A stretch of DNA of 62,090 bases, filler included, from Globobulimina sp. (Eukaryota), in the NCBI GenBank assembly GCA_003354225.1. It is 23 parts of 23 records of this genome, joined end to end, with 100 filler letters (N's around TTAATTAATTAA, not from the genome) between each part and the next. Parts side by side here need not be neighbours in the genome. Positions count along the whole stretch, not along the records: positions 51,381 to 53,983 come from PIVH01005780.1; 22 more parts are not named here. The stretch is one strand, 5' to 3'. The notes beneath the pieces are model-generated. The model worked only from the letters and a program-made list of their open reading frames with translations. It had not been told where the DNA came from and made no database searches. The translations under genes and the position numbers were made by a program. Positions within the stretch are counted from its first letter, which is position 1. Each line of letters starts with the position of its first letter. Of this stretch, positions 15,147 through 58,888 are shown one piece after another.

Positions 15147-15900
15147 CTAACAAACGTTTATATAAACAAAAGATAGTAAAAACAAAAACAATGTAATAAA
15201 TAAACCATTAAACAAAAAAAACAAAAATACACAAAATGATAGTGAGATACTAATTATTTTGGTAAATTGTTGAATATAATTTTTATTTTGATTTAAGACA
15301 TGAAATAAATTACAATAATTTCCAGAAATATCTTGTATTATTGCATCGCTATCATATTCTTCAAAATGTATAAATTTTTGTAATTTATTTACTAAATGCA
15401 AGTGATTATTGTCATTAATAATTGTGTCAACAACATATTGTATCATATCTTGCATAAATGTGCTTCTTTCATCTTTTCTCTCTCTTTCATTTATTTCATT
15501 TACATTGCAATTGATAATAATATTAAATTTTGTATTCTTTTCATTTAATATTTAATCGATTCAGATTTAAATCTTTCATTTCTTCTTTTTTATTTTTGAT
15601 TATTTTTGAGATTTTCTTAATTTCTTCATCCACACAATCACAATCTGCATCCTCTCTATTTCGATAATGTCTTTTTGTGCATTTACAGTCATTCATATTT
15701 GCGCATATTTTAATATTATCATATTTTGCTAAATCATTACTAATTTTATTTAATGTTTCAGTCTCATTATGTTTTGTCATTATAATTAAATGGATATAAT
15801 CCGACAAACACATTAAATATGACTCACTACAAAATTCAATAAATATTGCTTCTGTATTCGCATTATTCTCTTTTGAACATAATAACTCATAATATCGTAA
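15147..15900 (-). pseudogene. broken fragment of a His/Cys-rich module (likely N-terminal part of the ART-like family)
   Basis: LSDYIHLII..KH...C..MNDCKCTKRHYR and FEEYDSDAIIQD in different frames. Confidence 0.4.
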
Positions 15901-16235
15901 ATGTGGTATATTGACCTATTATACCCCCCTATTGTAAGCCCCTTGTTCACTACTTTAGTATCTTAGACCTTAAGCTAGTCACTAACCCATTCTACCTATA
16001 CTCCACTGAATACCATATATGGTGCGTCGACTTCGCGATCTTATCTGGTCCTTCCGCCAGAACTATCGATCACAAAAAAGAAAAGCGGTATTCATGAGTA
16101 TTAGCTAATCAATATTAATTATGGAACGTTAATNNNNNNNNNNNNNNNNNNNNNNNNNNNNNNNNNNNNNNNNNNNNTTAATTAATTAANNNNNNNNNNN
16201 NNNNNNNNNNNNNNNNNNNNNNNNNNNNNNNNNTT

Positions 16236-16370
16236 ATTTTTTGTTTGCATAACAATTATGGTTTCAATCTCTAATCGATATCTTCCACCAAATATTAAAC
16301 GTTCTGCCTCCTCCGGAAAACAACTCAGCCAGCTACAGTCCAAAAAAACTTCATTTTGACCCCACCCCGA
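16236..16370 (-). CDS. ADP-ribosyltransferase-like catalytic-loop fragment (absent from the ORF track)
   Basis: Minus strand reads NEVFLDCSWLSCFPEEAERLIFGGRYRLEIETI, i.e. S-x-F-x-x-E-x-E-x-L like the R-S-E ART signature. Confidence 0.55.
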
Positions 16371-16845: not shown

Positions 16846-18327
16846 TTAGAATTGTTTTTCTTTCTCAGCCGTATTTCTGTATTTTTTACCTTTACTAAAT
16901 ATTCTCTTAATTTTCGCCGCATCCACATCACTCACATCATCATTAAACAGCAACGCCTTCATTTCTTGACTCAAATTCTTTCCAACCTTTACACATATTT
17001 TACTAAAATCAATATCCAAAAATTCACCATACATTCTATGGTATTTCTGCCCCATTTTACTCTCATTATAATATCTAAACACTTGCTGTATATATTTGGG
17101 TGTATCCTTATCTCCATTCAACAATTTAACCAAAGTCGCCTGACTCTCATCCGTCACTTCCAAATTATATTTCCCTCCCTCAAAACCAGCAAAACCAGTA
17201 CTTAACATTTGCCATAGATTCAATGCTTCAAAATACGCATTAAAATCATAAGAAGCATCCCCCGCAACACATACATTCACCACACTCAATTCACCAAATT
17301 CACCGAGAAACACCACCTCATTCTTACCATCCTTCTCCGCAAAGCAACAGAAAGGCGCTAAATCAAAATATTTAGTATCATTAAATTCATTTAAAAACTG
17401 CGCTTTTAAGCTCAATATCAATGTCCCTTTGCTAAATATATGCGTTTCCCGACATGCGCTCAGAGGAATGCTCAAAAAACCTGTATTAAAAAACATCCAT
17501 TCATCATTTCTCCGTTGGTCTCCCCCCTCGCTGTCCGTATCTTTTTTTTCTTCCCTCTCCTCCATCGCATTTAAGCCACCACTTAAACCCACATACACCA
17601 CCATATCGGCAGGCATTTTACGCCCAAAATACGTGATAACTTCGTATAGAAATCTATAAAAGTGGTAGAATTTGGATGGTAGACCTTCGGTTTTTAGTTT
17701 GTATATGAATGTTGGCGCATTGTTGGGAGGTAATATAAGTAAAATAAATACTTAACTGACTCTATATCGTGCTACATATTTAGGGAAATGAGTGTATAAT
17801 AAGATGGCAAATACATGCTCAATTCCTAAGGAATCGCCTTTTTTAATGTCGACGTTAATGCCGGCATTAAAATTGGCGGTGAATTTGGTTGAAATGTCTT
17901 TGTTTTGGTAGATTGATTTTGCTCTTTTCAAAATGATAATGAATTCTGTTTCTGTTAATCTATCAGTATCGATACATTCTGCTTTGAATGTGACATTTTG
18001 TGGATTTACATCGTATGCTGGATTTATGAAATCTTGCTCCAATTTATAGGATTGTGGCGTAATTAAGTCAGAGTCGACGTATTTGGCACTATCCGGGCGG
18101 ATAATGTTAAGCCAGTTTTTTTCATCATCATCGGTGTATTGTATGATTGTGTCTTGTTTAGAATCGTCGGATTTACTTTTCTCATCACCGCAAAATACAC
18201 ATTTTGTTTCGTCACGGTTGCCGTATACATATCGACCACAGCATAAGTATCGCTTATTTACATATAGACATTGTTTGCAAGTCCATTTCTTAAATTTGTC
18301 ATTGGTGTCTGCTGTGTACGACATTAT
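16846..18327 (-). CDS. zinc-finger + degenerate ART-like protein (break between 17752 and ~17720)
   Basis: WTCKQCLYVN...CVFC finger; IEHVFAILLYTHF; FYHFYRFLYEVITYFG; VVYVGL; YFDLAPFCCF...NEVVFLG; same motif order as the 52853-53983 protein. Confidence 0.5.
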
Positions 18328-18938
18328 CTTTAAGGTAGTTGTGCACTTAGGGGTTGTGTTATATTGCGAGTATAAATTTAGGCTTGAGCAAAAATTACAA
18401 TTATTGCATGACAAAAATAATATAAACGTATATCAACATTAATGCAAAAATGTAATTTTTTGCCAATCATATACATGCCCTAATCGAAACTTTCTGGACC
18501 TAATCGAAACATGCCCTAATCGAAATTTATAAAAACAAAACATGTAAATATGCATGAATTTAGGTTTAAAAAAACAAGATAAAAATATAGAAACGTTAAT
18601 ACTTAAACACCAAAAAACAATTACAAAAAAAATAAAAATCCAATATCAATACAAAAAAATGCCAAAATGATAACCATACAAAATGCCATAAATATTTATT
18701 TTTAAAAACAAACATAACAAATTTAATTATTTTTTGGTTAAAAAAAAACAAAAATAAATAACGAATATGATTTACATAATGTTAATAATTAAAACACAAC
18801 AGAAAATACTAAAAAATGTTCATGCAAAAAACAAACAANNNNNNNNNNNNNNNNNNNNNNNNNNNNNNNNNNNNNNNNNNNNTTAATTAATTAANNNNNN
18901 NNNNNNNNNNNNNNNNNNNNNNNNNNNNNNNNNNNNNN

Positions 18939-43271: not shown

Positions 43272-45874
43272 AATCTGTTCCTAAATGATAGATTGAATCA
43301 TGATAATGACATTTTGATGTTCCATATTGGTCCATGACATATTTATAATTGGATAATTGATTTGGATCCAACGGCACTGATCTCACATCATATTCGGATC
43401 AACGGCACTGATTTGTGTCATATTTTGTGAAGGATTGTGTTTCAAATTATTGAGTACTGTCTCGTATTCGGGCAATGCTTTGCATAGTTTGTCTGCAGTT
43501 GGGTTTGATCTGTTCATTCCATATTCTTTGACTAAGTATTTCTTTTGATGTTTGTAGCACTGATTCTCCTCCAAAGTTTCATGAATCAATGCTATAATTT
43601 TTTGGAGATGAGTGTTTTGTTTGGAGTGTGTTTCTGATGCTTTTGAGAGAGGATCTTTGTTGTGTGTGTCATCTATTTTGTTAAGCAACCATTTCGTTGC
43701 GCCTGTCGCAGAGGACAGTGAGGCCAAAGGATTGAATAGTTTGGTATATGGAATTGCTTCAGGTTCTATGTTGTCGTTGCGGGTAATGTCATATTCTATA
43801 TCATCATGACCACAGCGGATGTCGCTAGATAGCACATGAATGTTGAAACACCAAATTGTCAAAGCATGTTCCAAAGTTTTTCGAAATATGTCAAAAGTGC
43901 CTTTGGTGGGAATAAAATATGTTCTAATGTCAAATCAATGGTATATTTCTCAAATATTTCCGCAACACAACTCAAAAAAAAATGTCTTTCCTCAGCATAT
44001 TTAGTACATTCTATCATATAATGATATACAGTTTCTTTGATTCCACAGTGTTTACACATTCCATTATTATTTTTAGCACAACATTGTCTGGCGCAGATCA
44101 TATAATATTTTATGACATTATATTTTTCCGTTTGTAATTTATAATATTGATAGTGATTCAAAGCATGAAAATACCAGTTTAAACTCACATGTTCTGTCCG
44201 TAATTGATTAATCATACTGAATTCACCCATGGTAAGAAATTTCATATCCAATTTCCATGCGTATTTTCTGTCGTAACGTTTCCAAATAAACAAATTTTTT
44301 GATATGATATGTGCAGATTTGTTTGATATATATTCGTTCTGATTCAAATTCTTCCATTTTTTCTTCGCAATATTTTTCAAATGTTTCAACGAAGATTGTT
44401 CTATTTTTAGATTACCTCTGTGACCAAGTCTCAGATAATCTTTCACCGCGGTGCTTGCCAAAATATCTGCTATTTTATTGCCTTCACAAACACCTCTTCT
44501 GCACCATTGTACTGCAACAATTTTGTTATATTTCTGTCCTAAAACAATGACATTTTTATAAATCTGAACGATTGATTCATAATTATATCTTTCTTTTACT
44601 CAAAACTTGGATATTTGGTCAGATTTAAATGCTCAATAATTCCCAGTTTTTTCGCACTGATATAGGCTTGCAACAATGGAGATTTCTGAGTCTTTCTTCA
44701 TTTTCTGTACTATTTTGTCCCTTGCTTGGATGATTTTGTCATTGTATTTCACTAATTTGGTGCTGCTATAGTATGGATTGACTTTGGGTGTGTTGGGTAT
44801 GGTTTGAATGTTGGAATGGGTGAGTTTGACTGAAATTAATTTGTGATCGCTTCTAAATCTGTTATTCAAAAGATTGAAATTGATTTTTGTGCCTTCCCTC
44901 ATCCATTTTTGTGGTTTGGATATGAGTGCAATGTCGAGTATGCTGCAGTGCTTGCGTCTGTTCTTTGTCTGGTAATAATTGTGCGTGAAATGAGTGTTTT
45001 GTTTGGAGTGTGTTTCTGATGCTTTTGATTGAATAGTTTGGTATATGTAATTGCTTCAGGTTTTATGTTGTCGTTGCGGGTAATGTCATATTCGATATCA
45101 TCATGACCACAGCGGATGTCGCTAGATAGCACATGAATGTTGAAACACCAAATTAGTAATAGAAACAAGGTCGACTCTGACATTGTCAAAGCATGTTCCA
45201 AAGTTTTTCGAACTCTAAAGCATGGCCACACTGCTCACTTCGATCAGTCACTGGGAGTTGTCATATCACGGCAACGTTAGCACTCAAGGAGTCCTTTAAA
45301 ACAAACAAAGGTAATTAGTGCACTTAAAAAAAAACAATTCGCCATCAAATTCTTCCATTTCGATATCATGCAATGTACCGTAAATATTCCTCGATTTTAT
45401 CTGACTTTGAGCATCAGCAAACAATACAATATTTATGTTATTCTCTCCAATACACAAATATCTGTCAAACGTTATTTCAAATGCCATATGAATCCAATAT
45501 ATTTCCAAACCGTTTTGTTGTATTATTTTATATTTATTATTCTTCCCTCTCGTGCCTTAGATCAATCCGTGTTGGAGATATCGAAAATATATTTGTGATA
45601 TAATCCATCAATGAACAATTATTGATTAATATTATGTATTTGTTGCATGAATTGTTTAGTCCATACTTCACCTTCAATGATGAGTTGAATATCAAATGTT
45701 AGACTCACTGTGTCATTAGTGTAACATGGTTGTAATGAGCAATCTGTTCCTAAATGATAGATTGAATGTTCCATATTGGTCCATGACATATTTATAATTG
45801 GATAATTGATTTGGATCCAACGGCACTGATCTCACATCAAATTCGGAAATTTGTGTCATATTTTGTGAAGGATT
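43272..45874. repeat. internal duplications: 43272-43437 ~ 45741-45874 and 43607-43885 ~ 44990-45211
   Basis: Near-identical direct copies differing by short deletions. Confidence 0.85.
43859..44902 (-). mobile_element. decayed APE-type non-LTR retrotransposon fragments
   Basis: SDHKLISVKL (end of an APE endonuclease) and QLRTEHVSLN...CKHCGIKETVYHYMIECTKY..ER (LINE C-terminal zinc knuckle). Confidence 0.65.
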
Positions 45875-48069: not shown

Positions 48070-48678
48070 TTTCTTAGTGTTTTGAAGAAATATTGTTTTC
48101 TCAGTCGAGTCAGTGCTAAACAAAACATTTTGCTGTGTAACTATGATGAACTTCCAGCTTTCAATCGATGTACGGAATTTAGTTCAGGTTTCACCACGAC
48201 CATCGTATCTACGCCAAATTGAGTATTTGAACATAGTTCAAGAGACAAACGCTAAATCAATTAAATCATTCAATTTCAAAGGTGTTATATGTTTTTAAAT
48301 GAAATAAACCAATTAACCCAAATTATACAATATTAAAAAAAAAAGATGCACCAAATAATTGTCAGTTTGTAATGGGTGTATTCGATCACGTTTCAAATAT
48401 ATTAAATGCTGTACAATCACCAATATGTGCTGGTGCTACCGATCGTGATTATGATTGTATCAATGTTCTGAAGGAAATGTGTTTAAAACCATCCAAAATT
48501 CGTTTAGTTGTATACGTATAATATAAATATACAGCAATTATTTACTCAGTCAATATAAACAGGAACAAATAAACTTANNNNNNNNNNNNNNNNNNNNNNN
48601 NNNNNNNNNNNNNNNNNNNNNTTAATTAATTAANNNNNNNNNNNNNNNNNNNNNNNNNNNNNNNNNNNNNNNNNNNNT

Positions 48679-49356
48679 GACCTCCATCAAGGCTATTGGG
48701 AAGAAGGTAAAATCTATTATTAGACTGATGATGTCAACCACCGTTTTATAATTGAGTGGGATGGAATATCGCATAATGATTATGGCTGGCCTCCAAAAGA
48801 AGAATATTTTCAAGTGATACTATTAGATCCTGCTCATTATTATACTACAACCGGTGACGGTGAGATTATCATCCAATATAAGATTGTTAAACAAACCCGT
48901 AGTAATACGATTGGAATAGAGAACTACTCGCAGGATATTGGGTTACAGTATGTTTACAATAAGAGCTACGATCCTACAGCATCAGCATTAAGAGGTGAGA
49001 CGGCAATAAAGTTCACCACAGAACCTCCATATGTTTCTGTGTCCATTGATGAAGAAACGGACAATAAACATAATCCAGGCAATGGCAATCTGGAACAGAA
49101 TTATCCAAACCCATTTAGTATAAGTACACGTATAAATTATTCAACTGCTAAACAAAGTAATGTAACTCTAGATATTTATAATTTAAGGGGGGAGTTAGTT
49201 AGGACACTGCATAAAGGGCCACAGCCTGAAGGCAAATATGTAGCTGTATGGAATGGTACAGATGAAATTGGAAATAGGGTTAATTCGGGCATATATTTCT
49301 ACCAACTTCAAACAGATAGCACTATCGAGACTAAGAAACTGTTCATGCTGAAGTAA
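48679..49356 (+). CDS. bacterial secreted protein C-terminus with FlgD-Ig/T9SS-like tail (C25-peptidase-type architecture), 5'-truncated, in-frame TAG at 48721
   Basis: NHRFIIEW, FQVILLDP..Y.T.TGDGEIIIQY, QNYPNPFS..T.I.Y, LDIYNLRGELVRTL, WNGTDE.G..V.SGIYFYQL. Confidence 0.8.
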
Positions 49357-49379
49357 TATGTATCAACAGATAGGATCCT

Positions 49380-50570
49380 ATGTATAGCTTTTACATATTG
49401 GTGTTTATTATTATTACTGCCGCAGTTGTGGGTTTGATAGAATTTTATCTCCATCAGAAACGAATTTATTCTATCCCTATCCGGATTCATATAAACGGCA
49501 CCCGTGGAAAATCGAGTGTAACGAGGTTGGTGGGTGCCGGATTGCGTGCTGGTGGAATTTCAACAATCACAAAAGTAACCGGTACATTTCCACGCCTAAT
49601 TATTGAAAGCGGCATTGAAACTTACATTCACCGGAAATCTTCCGCCAATATTATTGAGCAATTATCCATAGTTAAATTTGCTGCATCCCGAAAAGTGCAG
49701 GCATTAGTAATGGAATGCATGGCATTACAACCGCAATACCAGTGGATTACTGAAAATAAGATGATTCATTCCAATATCAGTGTAATGACAAATGTAAGGA
49801 TGGATCATGTTGATGTTATGGGCCGAACATTACCTGAAATTGCTGAGACAATGGGAAAGACAATCCCAAAAAATGAACACCTTTTTACTTCCGAAAATGT
49901 AATCCCTCAAACACTTAAAAAGATTGCCGATAAACGAAACACTATCTCTCATTTTATTGATTCTAGTTCAGTAACTCCAGAGGAAATGAAGGGATTTACC
50001 TATATTGAGCATAAGGATAATGTGGCTTTGGCTCTTGCAATTTGTGATCATCTGAACATTGATCGTAAGATAGCATTAACAGGTATGCATAAAGCAGTCC
50101 CAGATGCTGGTGCATTAATGTGTTTCAATGTTGAAGCGTTTAGTAAACAGCTGTTTTTTTATAATGCGTTTGCTGCTAATGATCCCAATTCTACTCTTAT
50201 GGTTTGGCAAAAAATAAGAGATGAAAATAGGTTGAAAGGTACTCGTATAGTTCTTTTAAACACCCGGCATGATCGAATGGATCGCGCAAAGCAACTGGCA
50301 GAATTGGTTGGTAATAAATTAGCATCTGAAATAGATTATTTATTACTCATGGGGCAATCAACAGAAGTAGTGGAAAACATGACAATTGGTTATGGTTTGC
50401 CTATGAATAAGATTATCAATTTAGGTCTGGTGACACCTCCAAAAGTTTTTGAAAAAATATTATCAGTTACCGATAAAATCTCTACTATTGTAGCCATCGG
50501 AAACATGGGAGGAATGGGTGCTGAAACTGCGGAATTTTTTGAACATAGAAGCACAGTGAAGAATGATTGA
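49380..50570 (+). CDS. capB: poly-gamma-glutamate synthase CapB/PgsB (bacterial)
   Basis: RIHINGTRGKSSVTRL, ANIIEQ, VMECMALQP, TNVRMDHVDVMG, NAFAANDPNST, GNMGG; AGGA upstream; no introns. Confidence 0.93.
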   Translation: MYSFYILVFIIITAAVVGLIEFYLHQKRIYSIPIRIHINGTRGKSSVTRLVGAGLRAGGISTITKVTGTFPRLIIESGIETYIHRKSSANIIEQLSIVKFAASRKVQALVMECMALQPQYQWITENKMIHSNISVMTNVRMDHVDVMGRTLPEIAETMGKTIPKNEHLFTSENVIPQTLKKIADKRNTISHFIDSSSVTPEEMKGFTYIEHKDNVALALAICDHLNIDRKIALTGMHKAVPDAGALMCFNVEAFSKQLFFYNAFAANDPNSTLMVWQKIRDENRLKGTRIVLLNTRHDRMDRAKQLAELVGNKLASEIDYLLLMGQSTEVVENMTIGYGLPMNKIINLGLVTPPKVFEKILSVTDKISTIVAIGNMGGMGAETAEFFEHRSTVKND

Positions 50571-50742
50571 AATAGCTATTACATTAGGTTTGGTTTTTAG
50601 TTTGCTTTCTTACGAAGTATTCGGACTCGCTGCCGGAGGTATTGTAGTACCAGGCTATATAGCATTGCAGCTTTCTCACCCCGACCGATTGGCAGGTATT
50701 CTGATTGTGAGCTTATTAACTTATTTGATTATTAAAGCGCTT
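50563..50742 (+). CDS. capC: poly-gamma-glutamate biosynthesis protein CapC/PgsC, N-terminal third only
   Basis: Overlaps the capB stop; GLVFSLLSYEVFGLAAGGIVVPGYIAL; resemblance ends after about 60 aa. Confidence 0.85.
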
Positions 50743-51380
50743 GTTCGAGCGCTATCTGGTGCCGGTACTACTGATCCGAGATCTGATGTGGAAGAATGTG
50801 ACAAGAAGAAGGAATATTAAATTCTTAATATGTATAATAATACTTGACCTGTAATGACATTTATGACATATTTATTATTTATTTTTGATTTTGAAGGACA
50901 TGGTGCATGCAACACTTAGCGTATCCTTGCACGCGAGAACGTGAACACAGACTGAAAATGATTGTTGAATCCTCAACGTGTTGAGAGGTTTTCACAGATA
51001 TCAAGATATAAATTGATAACCAAACACATTGACAAGATCTTGTCTAACAAATGAACGAACAATGTTCAAATTGTCAGAACTAATGCCATGATATCTATTT
51101 ACGATCCAGCTGTTATTTTTTGTATACCCCTCTTGATTACGCGCCTTACTTAAAACACCAACAGATCTCAATTCATTGGTTATATTTTGCAACTTGGTTT
51201 TCCGCACAATTTGGGCATATTCGTCTATATGTTTGAATCTGTTTTCATTTTTACCAATCATTCTATTTACAATTGGAATANNNNNNNNNNNNNNNNNNNN
51301 NNNNNNNNNNNNNNNNNNNNNNNNTTAATTAATTAANNNNNNNNNNNNNNNNNNNNNNNNNNNNNNNNNNNNNNNNNNNN

Positions 51381-53983
51381 CAATGACCCAATATTTAATT
51401 ATATGCTGCAAATATATGACACATTTAAAAGAATAGAGAGTTTTAAACAAAGCATGGTATTAAATGTCAATATAGATGACATACAAACAGATGATCATGA
51501 AATGCCGGAACCAGTTTACAGTTTGACATTAAATGAAATACAATATAGAAAGATTAAAGGAATTGAACATTTTGCAAAAATTGTGAGTAATACCTCCACT
51601 AAAGATAAGTATATGCATTTATTGAATCCTGTGAATTGGGATATAATTATTGATTCAATGTGTTTCAATATGGACGAACAAGACGATAAAATAAAAAAAC
51701 TTGAAGCACTCAATAAAATTGTACAGAGATCGTGCATTAATGATAAATATAGAATCATTAACTTGAACAACAGAATAGCAAAAGAAAAGATTTTAAGTGT
51801 TTTTGGAGCAATGGAATTTCTTAAAGGGGTTGGATTTGAACACAATATTTTAACCAATCGATTGGCGCTCCGGGAAGGAAGTACAGTTATTATTGACATT
51901 GCTGTCAATTGCATGCTTTTTAAAATAAAGATATTGAATTTATTGCAACCTTTGCAAAGTGCATGGAAAGAAATGGTAGAAATTATGTGCCAGCTTCCGT
52001 CGTTTGCATCGGCCACAGAAACAGTGACAAGATTAAGTTCGATGGATTTATATAATTTTCCAGACAATTATCACGACATAGCAACTAAAGTGAGGCAAAT
52101 CACAGTTAATAATACAGAGATCAAATATATTCCAACCAAATTACTCAATGAGTTGGGATTCAAAGTAAATGTTACTGAGCGTAACCAATTAATTATGCAA
52201 TTATTTCAAATTATTGTTTCAATTTGGAAGCAAGTTAATGTGATTGAAGAGGAAGAAAGAAATCATAAGCAACAGATAAATGATATGGTTCCATCCATGG
52301 AGCGATTAACCAGTGTATCACCACAGATGTTGCAGAAAGCATTGCCAATGTATCGTAGACAAGAAACCTCGCCAGAGATTATGGAGAATATTTTTCGATT
52401 TGGAAGATATTACAATGATAACAATGATGAGCTCGAGGCAAAACAACTCATTTCTGATTTGGAATTAGCGGAATTATATAACTGCGATAATATGGAAGAG
52501 TTAGAAGATGAATTATTGTCAAAAGTTTATGAAATGCAAGCAATAAATTTCCAAACCGAAGAATATTTGGGATATATTCAGCATTTCAAGGAAACTAAAA
52601 AACAAATGAAATCGAGGCAGTGTGAGGATAAACAAAATTGTACGTGGCACAAGGAAATGGTTCAATTATGGTCGTTGAATCAAATGCAGCTCGTTCACGT
52701 TATGTTTTATCATACAAAAGGTATCATTTATTCAGCGAATCTTCAGAAACAGAAACATTAATGTTATGTAGTTACAATTTCTACATGTTGCTGTTTCTGA
52801 GTCTATATGTTGATTTCAATAAATTATCCTTATATTATGCTACTATATTCAGATTATAATGAGATTGCAACGTCAGAACGTAGAGCGAATAGATTTAGAC
52901 AGGAAGTTAATACATGTTATGAAAGGCCGATAAGAAAACGTGTCGATGCGGTTCAAACCAAAGGTGAACCATATATTGCTGACCTAGAAAAAAAACAATC
53001 TGAACCAGGGGCCACAGTGTGTGCTGTTGGCAATGATTGCGGTTTGTTGACAGCGTTACTTCACAAATGTTATAATGTCGATGATATTCATAGCAATGAT
53101 TCAATTGCAATAAATCGGAACGAATATAAACAAGAAATTGATCATTGTTTAGAGTGTCATGGCAATTTTCGCAGTCAATGTCCTTTCGAAGAGAATTGTA
53201 AATTTCAGCAAAAATTGAAAGAATGCAATAATAACAGATTTATTCAGCTCCATCTACATTTTTATCATAATATGGCCATCGATTCAGATGAAGATATCAT
53301 TAAAATGAGACCAAAAATGGATAATTATAATGAAGAAAGAATACAATATAAGTTTGGCTTAGAATGTGGTGATAATAAGGCAACATTTGGCATTTTGGAG
53401 TTTGGAACACGTTTTATTATATTAAAGAAATCCGAGGCAAGATTCAAAAATCCAAAAGATGAGATACTGCACAATACCTATTGCAGTGTAAAAAAGAATG
53501 AATGGAATGATTTATTGCGGAAATGTATATCTTTTGCAAAAACGAGAAATGGAAAAACATCGCGTTTGAATACAAAAGAAATTGTTGCATTAAAATTATA
53601 TACAGATTTCGATCTGTTACAAAGAGAGTTTCGACGGTGTTTCAGAGAAAAGGATATGAATAATCGGAGAAAGAGACAGAGTCAATTTTATTTCTGGAAT
53701 AATTTACTTGAAACTGCGTGTAAAAAATCAAAAGATACAACCAGCAAAAAATTATATCATGGTGTTGATGATAAAAAATTAGCAGCATCGTGTTTTAGTG
53801 GAACATATTACGGTATGTTATAATGTTAAATGTTGTTCATTTAATTTATATATTATATTTAAAACATACACTATTACTTAGGTCCTGTGTCCACTACAAC
53901 TTATTTCTTGATAGCCAAAGGATTCGCAGGTGACAATGGTCAGGTTTTAGAGTTGTATCCGTCATTTGGTGCGAAAGGACTGC
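51381..53983 (+). CDS. PUB domain + His/Cys modules + ADP-ribosyltransferase-like domain, 3 exons, truncated
   Basis: PUB KYRIINLNN...ILSVFGAMEFLKGVGFE; introns 52721-52852 and 53813-53881; ALKLYTDF, KLYHGV, GPVSTTT..IAKGFA...GQVLEL. Confidence 0.7.
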
Positions 53984-54083: not shown

Positions 54084-56187
54084 TGCATAAAACTAATCGC
54101 ACCCTCACTCGCTACAATATGATAGGTATAAGCAACCACACCGTTAAAAGAATCAATCGCAAGTTGCAAAGGATAAGCATACGCATTATAATCACTGGTA
54201 TCGACATACGAATAATATTGAATTTCGACAGCATCCATCTCACCGGGCACATATAAACCAAAACCAACTCCACTCTCATCCGAAGATATATAATCGAGAG
54301 TACTTATAATGATAACTCCATTGGAAGACGCAATCGAAGAAGCCCTCATATCCAACACATCGCTGTCATATCCAAAAGCACCACTGTCAATATCATATAT
54401 TCCGAGCGCGTATACACTGCGCCAACGCCAGGGCTGAGCCTCCACCATATACACAATCCCATCCATCACGGTACAATCAAACGGCCAAAACGGTCGGGGA
54501 TATAAACCATTTTGATCAGTTATATTTTGGTGTGAATATATTTCATTTACCACCCAATTCTCTGCACTCACATCCACTGTCCACATATAACCAAAATAAC
54601 CGTCCATTAAATAGGCCATGTTGGAGTTATCAGGATCTATACACACCGAAGACAGAGCTGGTAAACTGTTGTCGACATTTGCATCATAATCCGCAGTCTC
54701 CACATAATTAACCACATTTTCAGTGCTTAAATCCTGCGCAAAAAGCATTCCAAAAATATCAGTTCCATAAAACATATCATTGGCAATGTCAGCAAGTTGA
54801 TATATTGCAGAGCTTTCTCTCTCCGGAATTACAGTCTCTCGAAGAAAATCCGGACCTATAAATCCATCATCAGTCATCCCTAAATCTACCGGCCACTGCG
54901 AGCTTATTTCGTTCAAATCCGGTTTATTAGAAACGGCAGTGAGTGAATTAATGTATGCAAACTTTCTGCGTTTTGGATCCCAGGCAATATTAACACTCAT
55001 TGCTTCGCGACGGACACTAGTATTGCCGGGATCAACTGTGTACATTGTAAAGTTTCGACTTAATCGGTTTAAAAACGGTCTGCTGCTAAATCGGATAAAA
55101 TAAATCTCACCGCTGCTTAATGACGGCACACACATTGTATTATAGGCACCGACAGAAAAATCGCCCGGAGACTGCAAACCGTCCATACCAACGGTAAATA
55201 CATGCGTTGTATCTCCGGTATCATAATATAACAACGAATCTGCTGTTGCTGCAATAAGATAATCTCCGATGAACTCCAGACTGGTGCCAGAAACTGTTAA
55301 TTTACCAGTGATGATACTCAATGTATCCGTGCCTGCAGTCATCACTCCCAATACCCCAGAACCATCAGCTCTGCTTTCAATGAAATAAACAATGCCATCT
55401 TTAACTGTGCACGCGTTTGGATGGAATGTGTAATTACCACCACCAGACTCTGTGAATAAATCATCATTCTGATCCTGCACAGTATCCGTTCCTCCGTTGT
55501 AAACTCGGACAGAATCGTTGTAATATACACCCGATACAAGCCATATTCCCGCGTCGTTGTTGGTGTATGAACCGTCGTTGTTGAGACCCGGAGCAGTGAC
55601 ATAAATAACCTCTGTATCAGCATCATAACATACGCCATTTATACCCGCAGTGCCAATGGTGACCGTGTCTTCATCTGCCGTAGATTCAAAGATCAAATCC
55701 CATTCTCGGATGGAGCCTTCTTTCGAGGCAAACCAAATTGTGCCCATATCTGGCAAAAAAACAGCACCTTGGGAGTCGGAATAGTCTGCGGCTGAATAAT
55801 CAATATTAAGTAGACTCCATTTATATGCTTTGTTGGGATGGCTTCCCGGCAATTTATATGCTGCATTGCGCCAATGATCGAAAAATATCCACGCTGTATC
55901 TGTGTCACTGCTGACATACGTGCAGCTCTCTGAAATTATTGATTATTTTGTTTGGGTTTATTTCTGTTTTTTTTTATACGTAAACACTTTGTAGACATTG
56001 TGAAAAAATCGTCTACGTCGATATGTTTACAGAAAAGAAGAGGATGTGATATTATATAACTTGTTGAGCCATTTAATGCAGATACTCCTGTATATGTCTC
56101 TAATAATTTAAAACTTGGTGTTGGTAATGCTTGTGTTACGGTTGCGGTTAAAACCGCTACAACCAATGAGATATACTCAAACATCAT
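54084..56187 (-). CDS. secreted acidic beta-rich (propeller-like) protein with internal duplication, 2 exons, 3'-truncated
   Basis: Signal peptide MMFEYISLVVAVLTATVTQA; intron 55930-55979; repeats FHPNACTVKDGIVYFIES / FWPFDCTVMDGIVYMVEA. Confidence 0.65.
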
Positions 56188-57504: not shown

Positions 57505-58342
57505 ATGCAATCTGATAATTTTTACGTTGCTGGGTACCAAAAACAGCAATTGGAGACTCAATTTAATTCGCAAAAAAGGCAAAATAAATACAACTGCAGT
57601 GACATATTATTTGTGACCCAAGGGCCAAAGGGGGGGGGTATGTTGGAAATGTTTGTGCCTTCTGTGTATTCAAAGATAACGTTCAAGCTATTGGCGATAA
57701 TCGTGATGGGGTATGTGGTGTTGGTATTCATGAAAGAAGAATTAATAAATTGGCAAAGATCAAATATTTTCAAGAAAATGGTATCAAGATCAATAAGGTG
57801 TTTACAAGTTTTCCGTCGAACAGTTGTGTATTTTGGATATCTGATGAACATGAAACATACGTAACTGGGGATCACAGTAAATATCAATTATCAACGGTTG
57901 GTGATGGAAACAGAAACGAACCTCAGTTAATTGCAGATTTGACGAATGTGATTAGTATACATGAATGTGATGGATTAGTTGCATTGTGTTCAGAATATAT
58001 TTTATCAAAACGTATAAAATATTTATGTACAGAAGTATTAAAGGATGTCCCACGTGAATTATGTCAACTTATTGCCGAGTATGCTGAAACCAATCACGTA
58101 TATTCCAATCGTAAATTATTCAACAAAGAATGTGAAGAAGAAAAAAGTAGTAATATTATTGTGAATGCTCTAGTAACATTTGGTAATTATATTAGAAATA
58201 TTCCAAAACAATCATGGATTAAAGTTGATTTTTTCAATGATAAGCACATTGTGAAAATTGTAGCAGGGACCGATTATTTCATATTTTTAGAATCAAATGG
58301 TATGGTATGGAGTTGTGGCCATAATTTTGAGGGTCAATTGGC
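57505..58342 (+). CDS. RCC1-repeat protein, frameshift at G9 tract, 3'-truncated
   Basis: AIGDNRDGVCGVG, VTGDHSKYQL, IVKIVAGTDYFIFLESNGMVWSCGHNFEGQL. Confidence 0.75.
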
Positions 58343-58888
58343 ACCGGTATCATTTATAAGCATTATTTGATCGTTAACGCCGTCTCCAAATTATTGGATG
58401 CTGCGGACATAAAACATTCAATCGAATTGCGACATATGTTTAATAATAATCAGATGAAACCGGCCGACATATTTATCAATAATTGGGGGCCAAACGGCGA
58501 ATCATTGGCTTTAGATATTGGTATAACATCGGTTGTTTGTGACAGCCGCTACGAACGTGCGGCCAATGAAAAATTAAGTGCTGCAAAACTATTCTATCAG
58601 CATAAAATTAATAAATATCAAGAACAATTAAATAATATCAATCCAAATTTAAACGGTTTAATATATCTTCCGTTTATTATGGAGGATTATGGGGGAATTC
58701 ACAAAGAAGCCGTCAGGTTTCTTAAGCGTGTGGCGAAACTACGCGCAGCCTCCATAAACGAAGAAATATCAGTTTCAACTGGATATTGCTTCCAATATAT
58801 ATCTTCAAGATTAAACAAAGCGAATGCAGTTTCTCTTCTGCATCATTATTCTATCTACAATCAAACAAATAAATTCAATAATGATTAA
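58343..58888 (+). mobile_element. 3' end of a non-LTR retrotransposon with restriction-like endonuclease (RLE; CRE/R2-type)
   Basis: KH...KPADIFINNW...LALDIGITS...KINKY...YLPFIMEDYGG (R/K-P-x-D...D...K..KY pattern). Confidence 0.7.

What the first reader, a model, noticed from the sequence alone, without database searches (positions are those of the whole stretch)
51381..53983. PUB-domain protein fused to an ADP-ribosyltransferase-like domain: flagship of an expanded modular ART family
Seen: after splicing, the protein has a PUB domain, two His/Cys modules (H..C....C...H..FYH), then ALKLYT, LYHGV and GPVSTTT..IA..FA..G.VLEL. Known: cholera/C2/VIP2-type (R-S-E) ARTs have a helical 'AL..YT' region, a YRG strand, an STS motif, 'A..F' and ExE; PUB domains bind p97/Cdc48. 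Inference: a eukaryotic toxin-like mono-ART with His in place of the Arg, targeted to p97. Related pieces occur in two other random contigs (15147-15900; 16236-16370 and 16846-18327), implying very high copy number with shuffled N-termini, possibly an undescribed defence/signalling system.
Basis: partly seen in the sequence, partly recalled or inferred. Interest (0 to 1): 0.7.

Follow-up and report, generated by a model that had tools for sequence, protein, structure and literature searches.

The report
Huge foraminiferal ADP-ribosyltransferase family, histidine variant
A spliced gene of a shelled marine amoeba (foraminifer) encodes a toxin-fold protein-modifying enzyme with an unusual active site; it belongs to an overlooked family with hundreds of copies in this one genome, and some bacteria appear to have taken copies of it.

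Summary
Both introns are skipped in contigs of public runs, giving an 800-codon open frame cut by the contig end. It encodes a PUB domain, two His/Cys modules and an ADP-ribosyltransferase (ART) core. A model of the closest intronless paralog has the cholera-type (ARTC) fold: ART2.2, Tre1 and XopAI at Z 13-14. His sits in the Arg column. Across 82 genomic cores: His 62, Ser 82, E-x-E 81/82, an H-S-ExE triad I did not find in print. At least 301 contigs of this genome carry the core; 4,758 clusters match in the wider library. The His/Cys module is a helical domain with eight conserved ligands and no solved match. Bacterial contigs carry intronless copies with signal-like N-termini, nested in one foraminiferal subfamily. 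p97 targeting is weak: this PUB pocket is partly decayed, and PUB occurs in 6 of 134 relatives. Activity is unshown, and Arg-to-His cripples iota toxin.

The parts
51381..52720 (+). Exon 1 (5' end may be cut by the contig edge; first Met at 51403)
   Evidence: a spliced relative extends 39 nt further 5'
51680..51870 (+). PUB domain, pocket partly decayed (approximate limits; Pfam match 51739-51849)
   Evidence: E=1.9e-9, above cut-off; alignment to PNGase and UBXD1 PUB
52480..52716 (+). His/Cys module 1, degenerate
   Evidence: E=1.6e-5 to subfamily profile
52721..52852 (+). Intron 1, 132 nt, GT..AG
   Evidence: skipped in 4 of 4 runs
52853..53812 (+). Exon 2
53020..53268 (+). His/Cys module 2: C-x5-C..H-x4-H..C-x5-C..H-x4-H, putative metal (two-zinc) domain
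   Evidence: sequence; family form folded, ligands counted
53446..53751 (+). ART helical N-lobe including LKLYT (53590-53604)
53752..53763 (+). ART strand 1, LYHG; His codon 53758-53760 stands in the Arg column of R-S-E enzymes
53813..53881 (+). Intron 2, 69 nt, GT..AG
   Evidence: skipped in 3 of 4 runs; absent in paralogs L003, L004
53882..53983 (+). Exon 3: STT motif (53890-53898), A..F helix, next strand; contig ends before E-x-E
   Evidence: continuation in L002
16236..16397 (-). Other contig: C-lobe piece of a family member with E-x-E
   Evidence: E=4e-12
16849..18432 (-). Other contig: degenerate family member (His, STT and first Glu lost; stop or short intron at about 17752, not resolved)
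15150..15915 (-). Other contig: His/Cys module (15544-15915) and 'YDSDA' module (15150-15551), no ART on the contig
   Evidence: E=3.6e-7; module in 48 of 181 relatives

Best explanation
This is an intact, spliced member of a foraminiferal family of intracellular mono-ADP-ribosyltransferases with an ARTC fold and a hybrid H-S-ExE active site. SHOWN: gene structure, fold, His in the Arg column, invariant Ser and Glu, purifying selection, copy number, domain shuffling, bacterial copies. INFERRED mechanism: NAD+ is held by a His-Gly strand as in diphtheria-toxin/PARP enzymes, with conserved N-lobe residues (Tyr62, Gln69, Arg77, Arg86 of L004) making up for the lost Arg. The second Glu drives nicotinamide release, and the first Glu of E-x-E points to arginine as acceptor. 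The His/Cys domain upstream binds metal and, with a leucine-rich-repeat-like C-terminal domain, controls the core. Swappable domains (PUB, PITH, UBA, ubiquitin, PH and others) place each copy at, or let it sense tampering with, a different host machine, most often the ubiquitin-proteasome system. ARH hydrolases would erase the mark. The most likely role is conflict with engulfed or resident microbes. In this member the PUB is a weakened docking module, not proof that p97 is the substrate.
For: Fold: pLDDT 92.6; Foldseek ART2.2 E=4.9e-5; XopAI Z 13.8 (rmsd 3.1, 176 aligned), Tre1 13.7 (3.1, 165), ART2.2 13.4 (3.2, 173), against PARP16 5.6. His opposite the Arg of Y-R-G (probability 96.6, E=4.8e-10), and that R-type profile aligns to Vis, HopU1 and Tre1. 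Ser 82/82, Glu 81/82 and 82/82 in cores only 19-31% identical to L004; 194, 191 and 194 of 201 in library proteins. dN/dS 0.12 between the finding and L002 (15 synonymous, 8 non-synonymous changes). 12 of 23 named partners are ubiquitin-proteasome domains. Only 11 of 143 long Met-starting proteins have a signal-like start by a crude hydropathy scan. 23 ARH matches in the genome. Bacterial contigs keep H-S-ExE copies behind signal-like N-termini. Iota Arg295 superposes on diphtheria-toxin His21 (PMC3202787, passages), so His at this place binds NAD+ in the sister clade.
Against: No activity measured. In iota toxin, Arg295 to His drastically cuts NADase and transferase activity, and a second NAD-binding Arg (Arg352) has no conserved counterpart here. 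The His column is not fixed: 20 of 82 cores carry Cys, Thr, Arg, Tyr or Ser. The hits were chosen with a query that contains the Ser and Glu, which inflates their conservation somewhat. The model is of paralog L004 (53% identical), without NAD+, and I had no coordinates to check the cleft. The LRR-like reading rests on Atlas scores of 0.82-0.83, a lead only. I did not check whether the ARH matches are eukaryotic. The defence role is inferred from expansion and transfer, not from any direct test.
Confidence: 0.55

Rival explanations
1. The core binds NAD+ or ADP-ribose, or hydrolyses NAD+, but does not modify proteins: a sensor or NADase family.
For: Both NAD-binding arginines of iota Ia are missing, and Arg-to-His cripples that toxin. 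The strand-1 residue varies. 24 of 181 proteins carry two or three cores.
Against: The first Glu of E-x-E is kept as Glu in 81/82 and 191/201 cores; in iota, Asp at that place keeps NADase but loses transferase activity. Bacteria keep the full triad.
Confidence: 0.2
2. Active writers of ordinary cell signalling and proteostasis control in a giant cell, with no link to microbial conflict.
For: Partner domains are housekeeping signalling and ubiquitin modules. The ART core is under purifying selection. PUB itself is expanded, 47 matches.
Against: Hundreds of divergent copies (median nearest-neighbour identity 46%), repeated independent domain capture and repeated uptake by bacteria fit an arms race better (inference).
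Confidence: 0.15
3. One reading: this member docks on p97/Cdc48 through its PUB and ADP-ribosylates it or its clients.
For: PUB above the Pfam cut-off, with Tyr wall and cornerstone Asn kept. Host p97 ends in acidic-Ile-Tyr-Asp-stop (L213). PUB was joined to ART cores more than once (one clade rejected, p-AU 0.003).
Against: The Asn matching HOIP Asn85 and the Arg matching PNGase Arg55 are absent. The closest paralog has deleted the cornerstone segment. PUBs also bind other proteins such as OTULIN. Most other ART-linked PUBs lack the cornerstone Asn.
Confidence: 0.15
4. Nucleic-acid-directed ART, like pierisin or scabin.
For: The Arg-rich His/Cys domain could bind nucleic acid (inference). Earlier notes report NADAR fusions in this genome (unchecked).
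Against: E-x-E rather than the Q-x-E of scabin and SCO5461 (PMC8120803 table). Scabin matches at Z 7.0 over 94 residues against Z 13-14 for protein-directed enzymes.
Confidence: 0.08

Closest known systems
ARTC / R-S-ExE arginine mono-ARTs: rat ART2.2 (1gxy), Tre1 (6drh), XopAI (6kly), HopU1 (3u0j), ExoS/ExoT, Vis
   Same: Whole fold with helical N-lobe (Z 10-14), S-T-[ST] strand, A..F helix, E-x-E
   Different: His instead of Arg in about 80% of cores; 14-20% identity; below Pfam cut-offs; mostly without signal peptide; multidomain; hundreds of copies per genome
ARTD / H-Y-E clade: diphtheria toxin, PARPs
   Same: His-Gly on strand 1 at the NAD-binding position
   Different: No Tyr on strand 2 (Ser in 82/82), E-x-E, ARTC N-lobe; structural match only Z 5-7 over about 80-100 residues
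PUB-domain p97 cofactors: PNGase, UBXD1, HOIP
   Same: PUB domain with K-Y-R and cornerstone Asn
   Different: Two pocket residues lost; joined to an ART, a pairing not evident in the two listings that held both terms (listings only)
Canonical R-type ARTs of the same genome (PF01129 hits L131-L139)
   Same: Homologous core
   Different: Few (13 matches), and outside the His-family branch in both trees

Membership tests
ARTC (R-S-E clade) | ARTC fold with helical N-lobe and split beta-sheet cleft | tested here: met
   model of paralog L004
ARTC (R-S-E clade) | Arg on strand 1 | tested here: not met
   His in the finding; His 62, Arg 5 of 82; His 170, Arg 10 of 201; column matched
ARTC (R-S-E clade) | S-T-S type motif on strand 2 | tested here: met
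   STT at 53890; Ser 82/82
ARTC (R-S-E clade) | Catalytic Glu in [QE]-x-E | tested here: met
   past the contig end in the finding; E-x-E in the 96%-identical L002; 82/82 for the second Glu
ARTC (R-S-E clade) | Score above Pfam PF03496 or PF01129 cut-off | tested here: not met
   best 23.2 bits against 23.4 for the L002 exon; 0 of 134 library proteins above cut-off; L143 just passed PF01129
ARTC (R-S-E clade) | NAD+-dependent mono-ADP-ribosyl transfer | not testable with these tools
   needs an assay
ARTD (H-Y-E clade) | His on strand 1 | tested here: met
ARTD (H-Y-E clade) | Tyr on strand 2 | tested here: not met
   Ser in 82/82
PUB domain | Pfam PF09409 above cut-off | tested here: met
   37.7 against 34.3 bits
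PUB domain | Cornerstone Asn and Tyr wall of the PIM pocket | tested here: met
   alignment to PNGase read with PMC4017264 passages; residue mapping is my inference
PUB domain | Asn bonding the PIM Tyr (HOIP Asn85) and Arg binding the p97 C-terminus (PNGase Arg55) | tested here: not met
   replaced in both alignments shown; HOIP also lacks that Arg and still binds p97
PUB domain | Binds the p97 tail | not tested
Any solved zinc-binding fold (His/Cys module) | Structural match to a solved domain | tested here: inconclusive
   confident model (pLDDT 87.7) without a clear match

The most novel reading that the evidence does not exclude
Foraminifera run a cell-autonomous immune or surveillance system built on a third kind of ART active site (H-S-ExE, bridging the cholera and diphtheria clades). 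Hundreds to thousands of enzymes per genome are each gated by a new two-zinc domain and fitted with captured decoy or targeting domains, and bacterial symbionts have repeatedly taken the enzyme from their hosts and secrete it back as an effector.
Probability: 0.3. Interest if true: 0.9.

Novelty: new variant of a known kind. Interest (0 to 1): 0.72.

Why it matters
ARTs are sorted by two triads, R-S-E and H-Y-E. A natural family with His on the ARTC scaffold, if active, shows the first position can switch and offers hundreds of natural variants for asking how NAD+ is bound in each clade. It is among the largest gene families in this genome yet is nearly invisible to Pfam, so foraminiferal annotation misses it. 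It brings a conserved, confidently folding His/Cys domain with no solved match. The bacterial copies point to host-to-bacterium transfer of a toxin-fold enzyme, the reverse of the direction usually described (the PMC8120803 abstract describes eukaryotes adopting ARTs from bacteria), and give a handle on immunity and symbiosis in a major marine lineage where little is known about either.

Tried and rejected
Pfam on the finding's own ART pieces: no ART family. Sequence-profile searches of solved structures gave only sub-threshold ART hits (ExoT E=0.19 and 0.036). His/Cys module: no PDB sequence hit, no usable Atlas hit, Foldseek best E=2.6, wide structural search best Z 5.0; this does not show the fold is new. 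Profile comparison of the finding's short module with the family form was not significant (probability 1%), so their homology rests on ligand spacing and position. Prokaryote genomes: no relative with two single-protein queries (0 of 106 and 0 of 42 candidate stretches); viral contigs none (0 of 23 and 0 of 11); these scans see close relatives only. A pattern search for the p97 C-terminal part found 0; it was found by family search. No RNA holder on record was listed. Complex prediction of PUB with the p97 tail was not available. Literature: ten searches showed no description of this family; 'H-S-E' with ADP-ribosyltransferase gave 0 papers. I saw only listings for most hits, and no supplements. 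A 2015 review of ART natural history that I recall (Aravind and colleagues) was not held; it or its supplements may mention rhizarian expansions. Rejected: allelic redundancy as the source of the count (0 of 82 cores above 90% to their nearest neighbour; exact duplicates had been dropped first); a bacterial contaminant origin of the finding (two confirmed spliceosomal introns); a PARP assignment.

Full report
OBSERVATION. The window is a chain of about 2.6-kb contigs separated by N spacers, and the finding is one contig, G000:C5780. It holds three exons on the + strand. Contigs from public runs skip 52721-52852 (4 of 4 runs laid) and 53813-53881 (3 of 4), both GT..AG, and one 2,590-nt contig of a relative about 95% alike spans all three exons and runs on past the end. 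These four were 4 of 8 runs listed; none is on record as RNA, but spliced contigs are most simply transcripts. The spliced frame is 800 codons without a stop. It reads PUB (Pfam E=1.9e-9, above cut-off), a degenerate and a complete His/Cys module, then LKLYT, LYHG, STT and the A..F helix. The contig ends before the last strand, which the 96%-identical copy L002 supplies with E-x-E. L002 may be an allele or a recent paralog; between the two the core has 15 synonymous changes in 87 sites and 8 non-synonymous in 345, dN/dS 0.12.

THE CORE IS AN ARTC-FOLD DOMAIN WITH HIS FOR ARG. I folded the closest intronless paralog, L004 (53% identical to the finding's exon-2 part), on an 88-row alignment: pLDDT 92.6. 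Foldseek's best matches are ART2.2 (E=4.9e-5), ExoS, Tre1 and C3. The independent wide search ranks XopAI (Z 13.8, rmsd 3.1, 176 aligned), Tre1 (13.7, 3.1, 165), ART2.2 (13.4, 3.2, 173) and HopU1 (12.3, 3.6, 175) on top, with diphtheria toxin at 7.1 and PARP16 at 5.6; viral matches are also ARTs. Profile comparison with seven PF01129 hits of the same genome puts Y-H-G on Y-R-G (probability 96.6, E=4.8e-10), and that profile aligns to the Y-R-G of Vis, HopU1 and Tre1. Among 82 full-length intronless cores (kept from 142 non-duplicate hits in the loci fetched), the strand-1 residue is His 62, Cys 8, Arg 5, Thr 5, Tyr 1, Ser 1; Ser is 82/82; the two Glu are 81/82 and 82/82. In 201 cores of library proteins: His 170, Arg 10; Ser 194; Glu 191 and 194. 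The triad is H-S-ExE. A review names H-Y-E and R-S-E as the two family triads and says the Arg positions NAD+ (PMC8120803, passages; also PMC3482391, passages; PMC13229280, one passage). Against activity: in iota toxin Arg295 to His drastically reduces both activities, and Arg352 is also needed. For it: the same review places Arg295 on diphtheria-toxin His21, and says Asp at the first Glu position keeps NADase but loses transfer (PMC3202787, passages). The family keeps Glu there, and has its own conserved N-lobe residues (Tyr62 76/82, Gln69 60/82, Arg77 68/82, Arg86 56/82).

SIZE AND RANGE. Four searches of the 70-Mb, 48,370-contig assembly hit 301 distinct contigs. Each scored at most 150 candidates, out of 149, 319, 386 and 496, so this is a floor. 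Median nearest-neighbour identity among the 82 cores is 46% and none exceeds 90%. The 18-row profile finds 4,758 clusters at 50% identity with E up to 0.001, and 1,110 at 1e-30; I saw only the best 150. Of 30 proteins looked up, 20 carry an organism name, all Bolivina argentea or Nonionella stella (that these are foraminifera is my own knowledge). In a FastTree tree 284 of 297 cores form one branch (support 97) apart from the canonical R-type rows, with a few Arg-bearing lineages inside; the outgroup is long-branched and not one clade, so the order of events is unsure. None of 134 library proteins passes an ART Pfam cut-off, which explains why the family is overlooked.

ARCHITECTURE. Upstream of the core most members carry a His/Cys domain: 84 of 119 library proteins with at least 200 residues upstream. 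In 43 genomic copies eight positions hold Cys 36, Cys 42, His 43, His 43, Cys 40, Cys 42, His 42, His 41. It folds as five helices, pLDDT 87.7. Two zinc sites are an inference from the eight ligands. The finding's module has the same spacing but is shorter, and its link to the family form is not significant by profile comparison. A short acidic 'YDSDA' module occurs in 48 of 181 proteins. Downstream, the finding's subfamily has a duplicated alpha/beta domain with weak leucine-rich-repeat leads. I scanned 134 of 181 library proteins, mostly the longer ones: 23 have a named partner, PUB 6, PH 5, PITH 3, and one each of ubiquitin, UBA, Skp1-POZ, SPRY, PX, RasGEF, CAP-Gly, F5/8, Sad1 and SAM (SAM together with a PUB); 111 have none. 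Genomic ORFs add ankyrin, MYND and UBA. 21 of 181 proteins have two cores and 3 have three.

THE PUB AND p97. The host p97 gene lies on two contigs; the C-terminal piece ends in an acidic run, Ile-Tyr-Asp, stop (L213), the type of tail PUBs bind (PMC4017264, passages). That L213 is the same gene as L145 is inferred from sequence type. The finding's PUB keeps K-Y-R and the cornerstone Asn but lacks the helix Asn and the PNGase Arg55. Its closest paralog L114 has deleted the cornerstone segment and has no Pfam hit. The genome has 47 PUB matches. The finding's PUB groups with a non-ART PUB (97/84), and ART-linked PUBs are rejected as one clade (p-AU 0.003; 53 rows, only 74 columns). So PUB was recruited more than once, which favours some link to the p97/ubiquitin machinery, but this copy is decaying. 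I could not model the complex.

BACTERIAL COPIES. Several library proteins begin with signal- or lipoprotein-like peptides. A metagenome scan gave 6 loci from 84 candidate stretches. In three, the ART genes are intronless on 28-30% GC, 73-80% coding DNA: L228 beside MnmG, a sodium transporter and FabD; L227 beside a SUF protein (just under its cut-off); L230 as a tandem pair among secreted-type genes with no named neighbour. Five of six such cores nest in one subfamily that includes the intron-bearing genomic copy L013, at 71-72% identity to their nearest neighbour; the tree needs 4 label changes, at least 2 forced by well-supported branches (quick tree, 77 selected rows). P0113 and P0091 were labelled bacterial from their N-termini alone. 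Repeated host-to-bacterium capture is the simplest reading; an intracellular Bacteroidota-type symbiont is my guess from recall; chimeric assembly was not excluded.

MECHANISM AND VERDICT. Most likely (0.55) these are active intracellular arginine mono-ARTs that bind NAD+ through a His-Gly strand, are controlled by the His/Cys and C-terminal domains, and are aimed by shuffled partner domains, in conflict with microbes; 23 ARH matches in the genome (origin unchecked) could erase the mark. Rivals: NAD+ sensor or NADase (0.2), housekeeping signalling (0.15), nucleic-acid target (0.08); p97 as this member's partner 0.15. It works like an ARTC but fails the Arg test of the R-S-E clade and the Tyr test of H-Y-E, so I file it as a new variant. 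Ten literature searches and five look-ups of earlier scan notes showed no description; subscription papers and supplements were out of reach. Interest 0.72.

Noticed in passing
window 48678-51280: Bacterial-type genes (poly-gamma-glutamate synthase PgsB at 49383-50567, NCBIfam E=8e-126; a PgsC-like start; an ORF with a secretion-type C-terminus, recalled) switch to AT-rich eukaryote-like DNA near 50740: chimeric contig or transfer junction.
   Followed up: partly
window 54086-55942 (-): 619-aa bacterial-looking repeat or propeller-like ORF on a 38% GC contig whose other end is AT-rich.
   Followed up: no
L135:816-1673, L140:1345-1944, L141:661-2109, L142:347-1846: A second non-Arg ART clade in this genome, with Ser or Thr on strand 1 (Y-S-G, Y-T-G), outside the His family.
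   Followed up: partly
L107, L105, L121, L092, L071, L083: A subclade with Cys on strand 1 (Y/F-C-G) and intact Ser and E-x-E; the search with L107 had 496 candidates.
   Followed up: partly
G000 PUB matches, L150-L178 and L190-L198: 47 PUB matches in one genome; many ART-linked PUBs lack the cornerstone Asn; one PUB sits with RanBP zinc fingers and RasGEF_N (L190), one with SAM (L197).
   Followed up: partly
P0178 (library protein): 577-aa protein with two very divergent cores and a zinc-ribbon-like motif, on long branches; source type unknown.
   Followed up: no
P0195 (library protein): Another member with a lipoprotein-like N-terminus in the same subfamily as the bacterial copies; context not seen.
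   Followed up: no
window 17755-18432 (-): The degenerate family member starts with a Cys-rich zinc-ribbon-like segment in place of the usual His/Cys domain.
   Followed up: no
window 43386-45234 (-) and 58331-58885 (+): ORFs that look like non-LTR retroelement pieces, by recall of their motifs.
   Followed up: no
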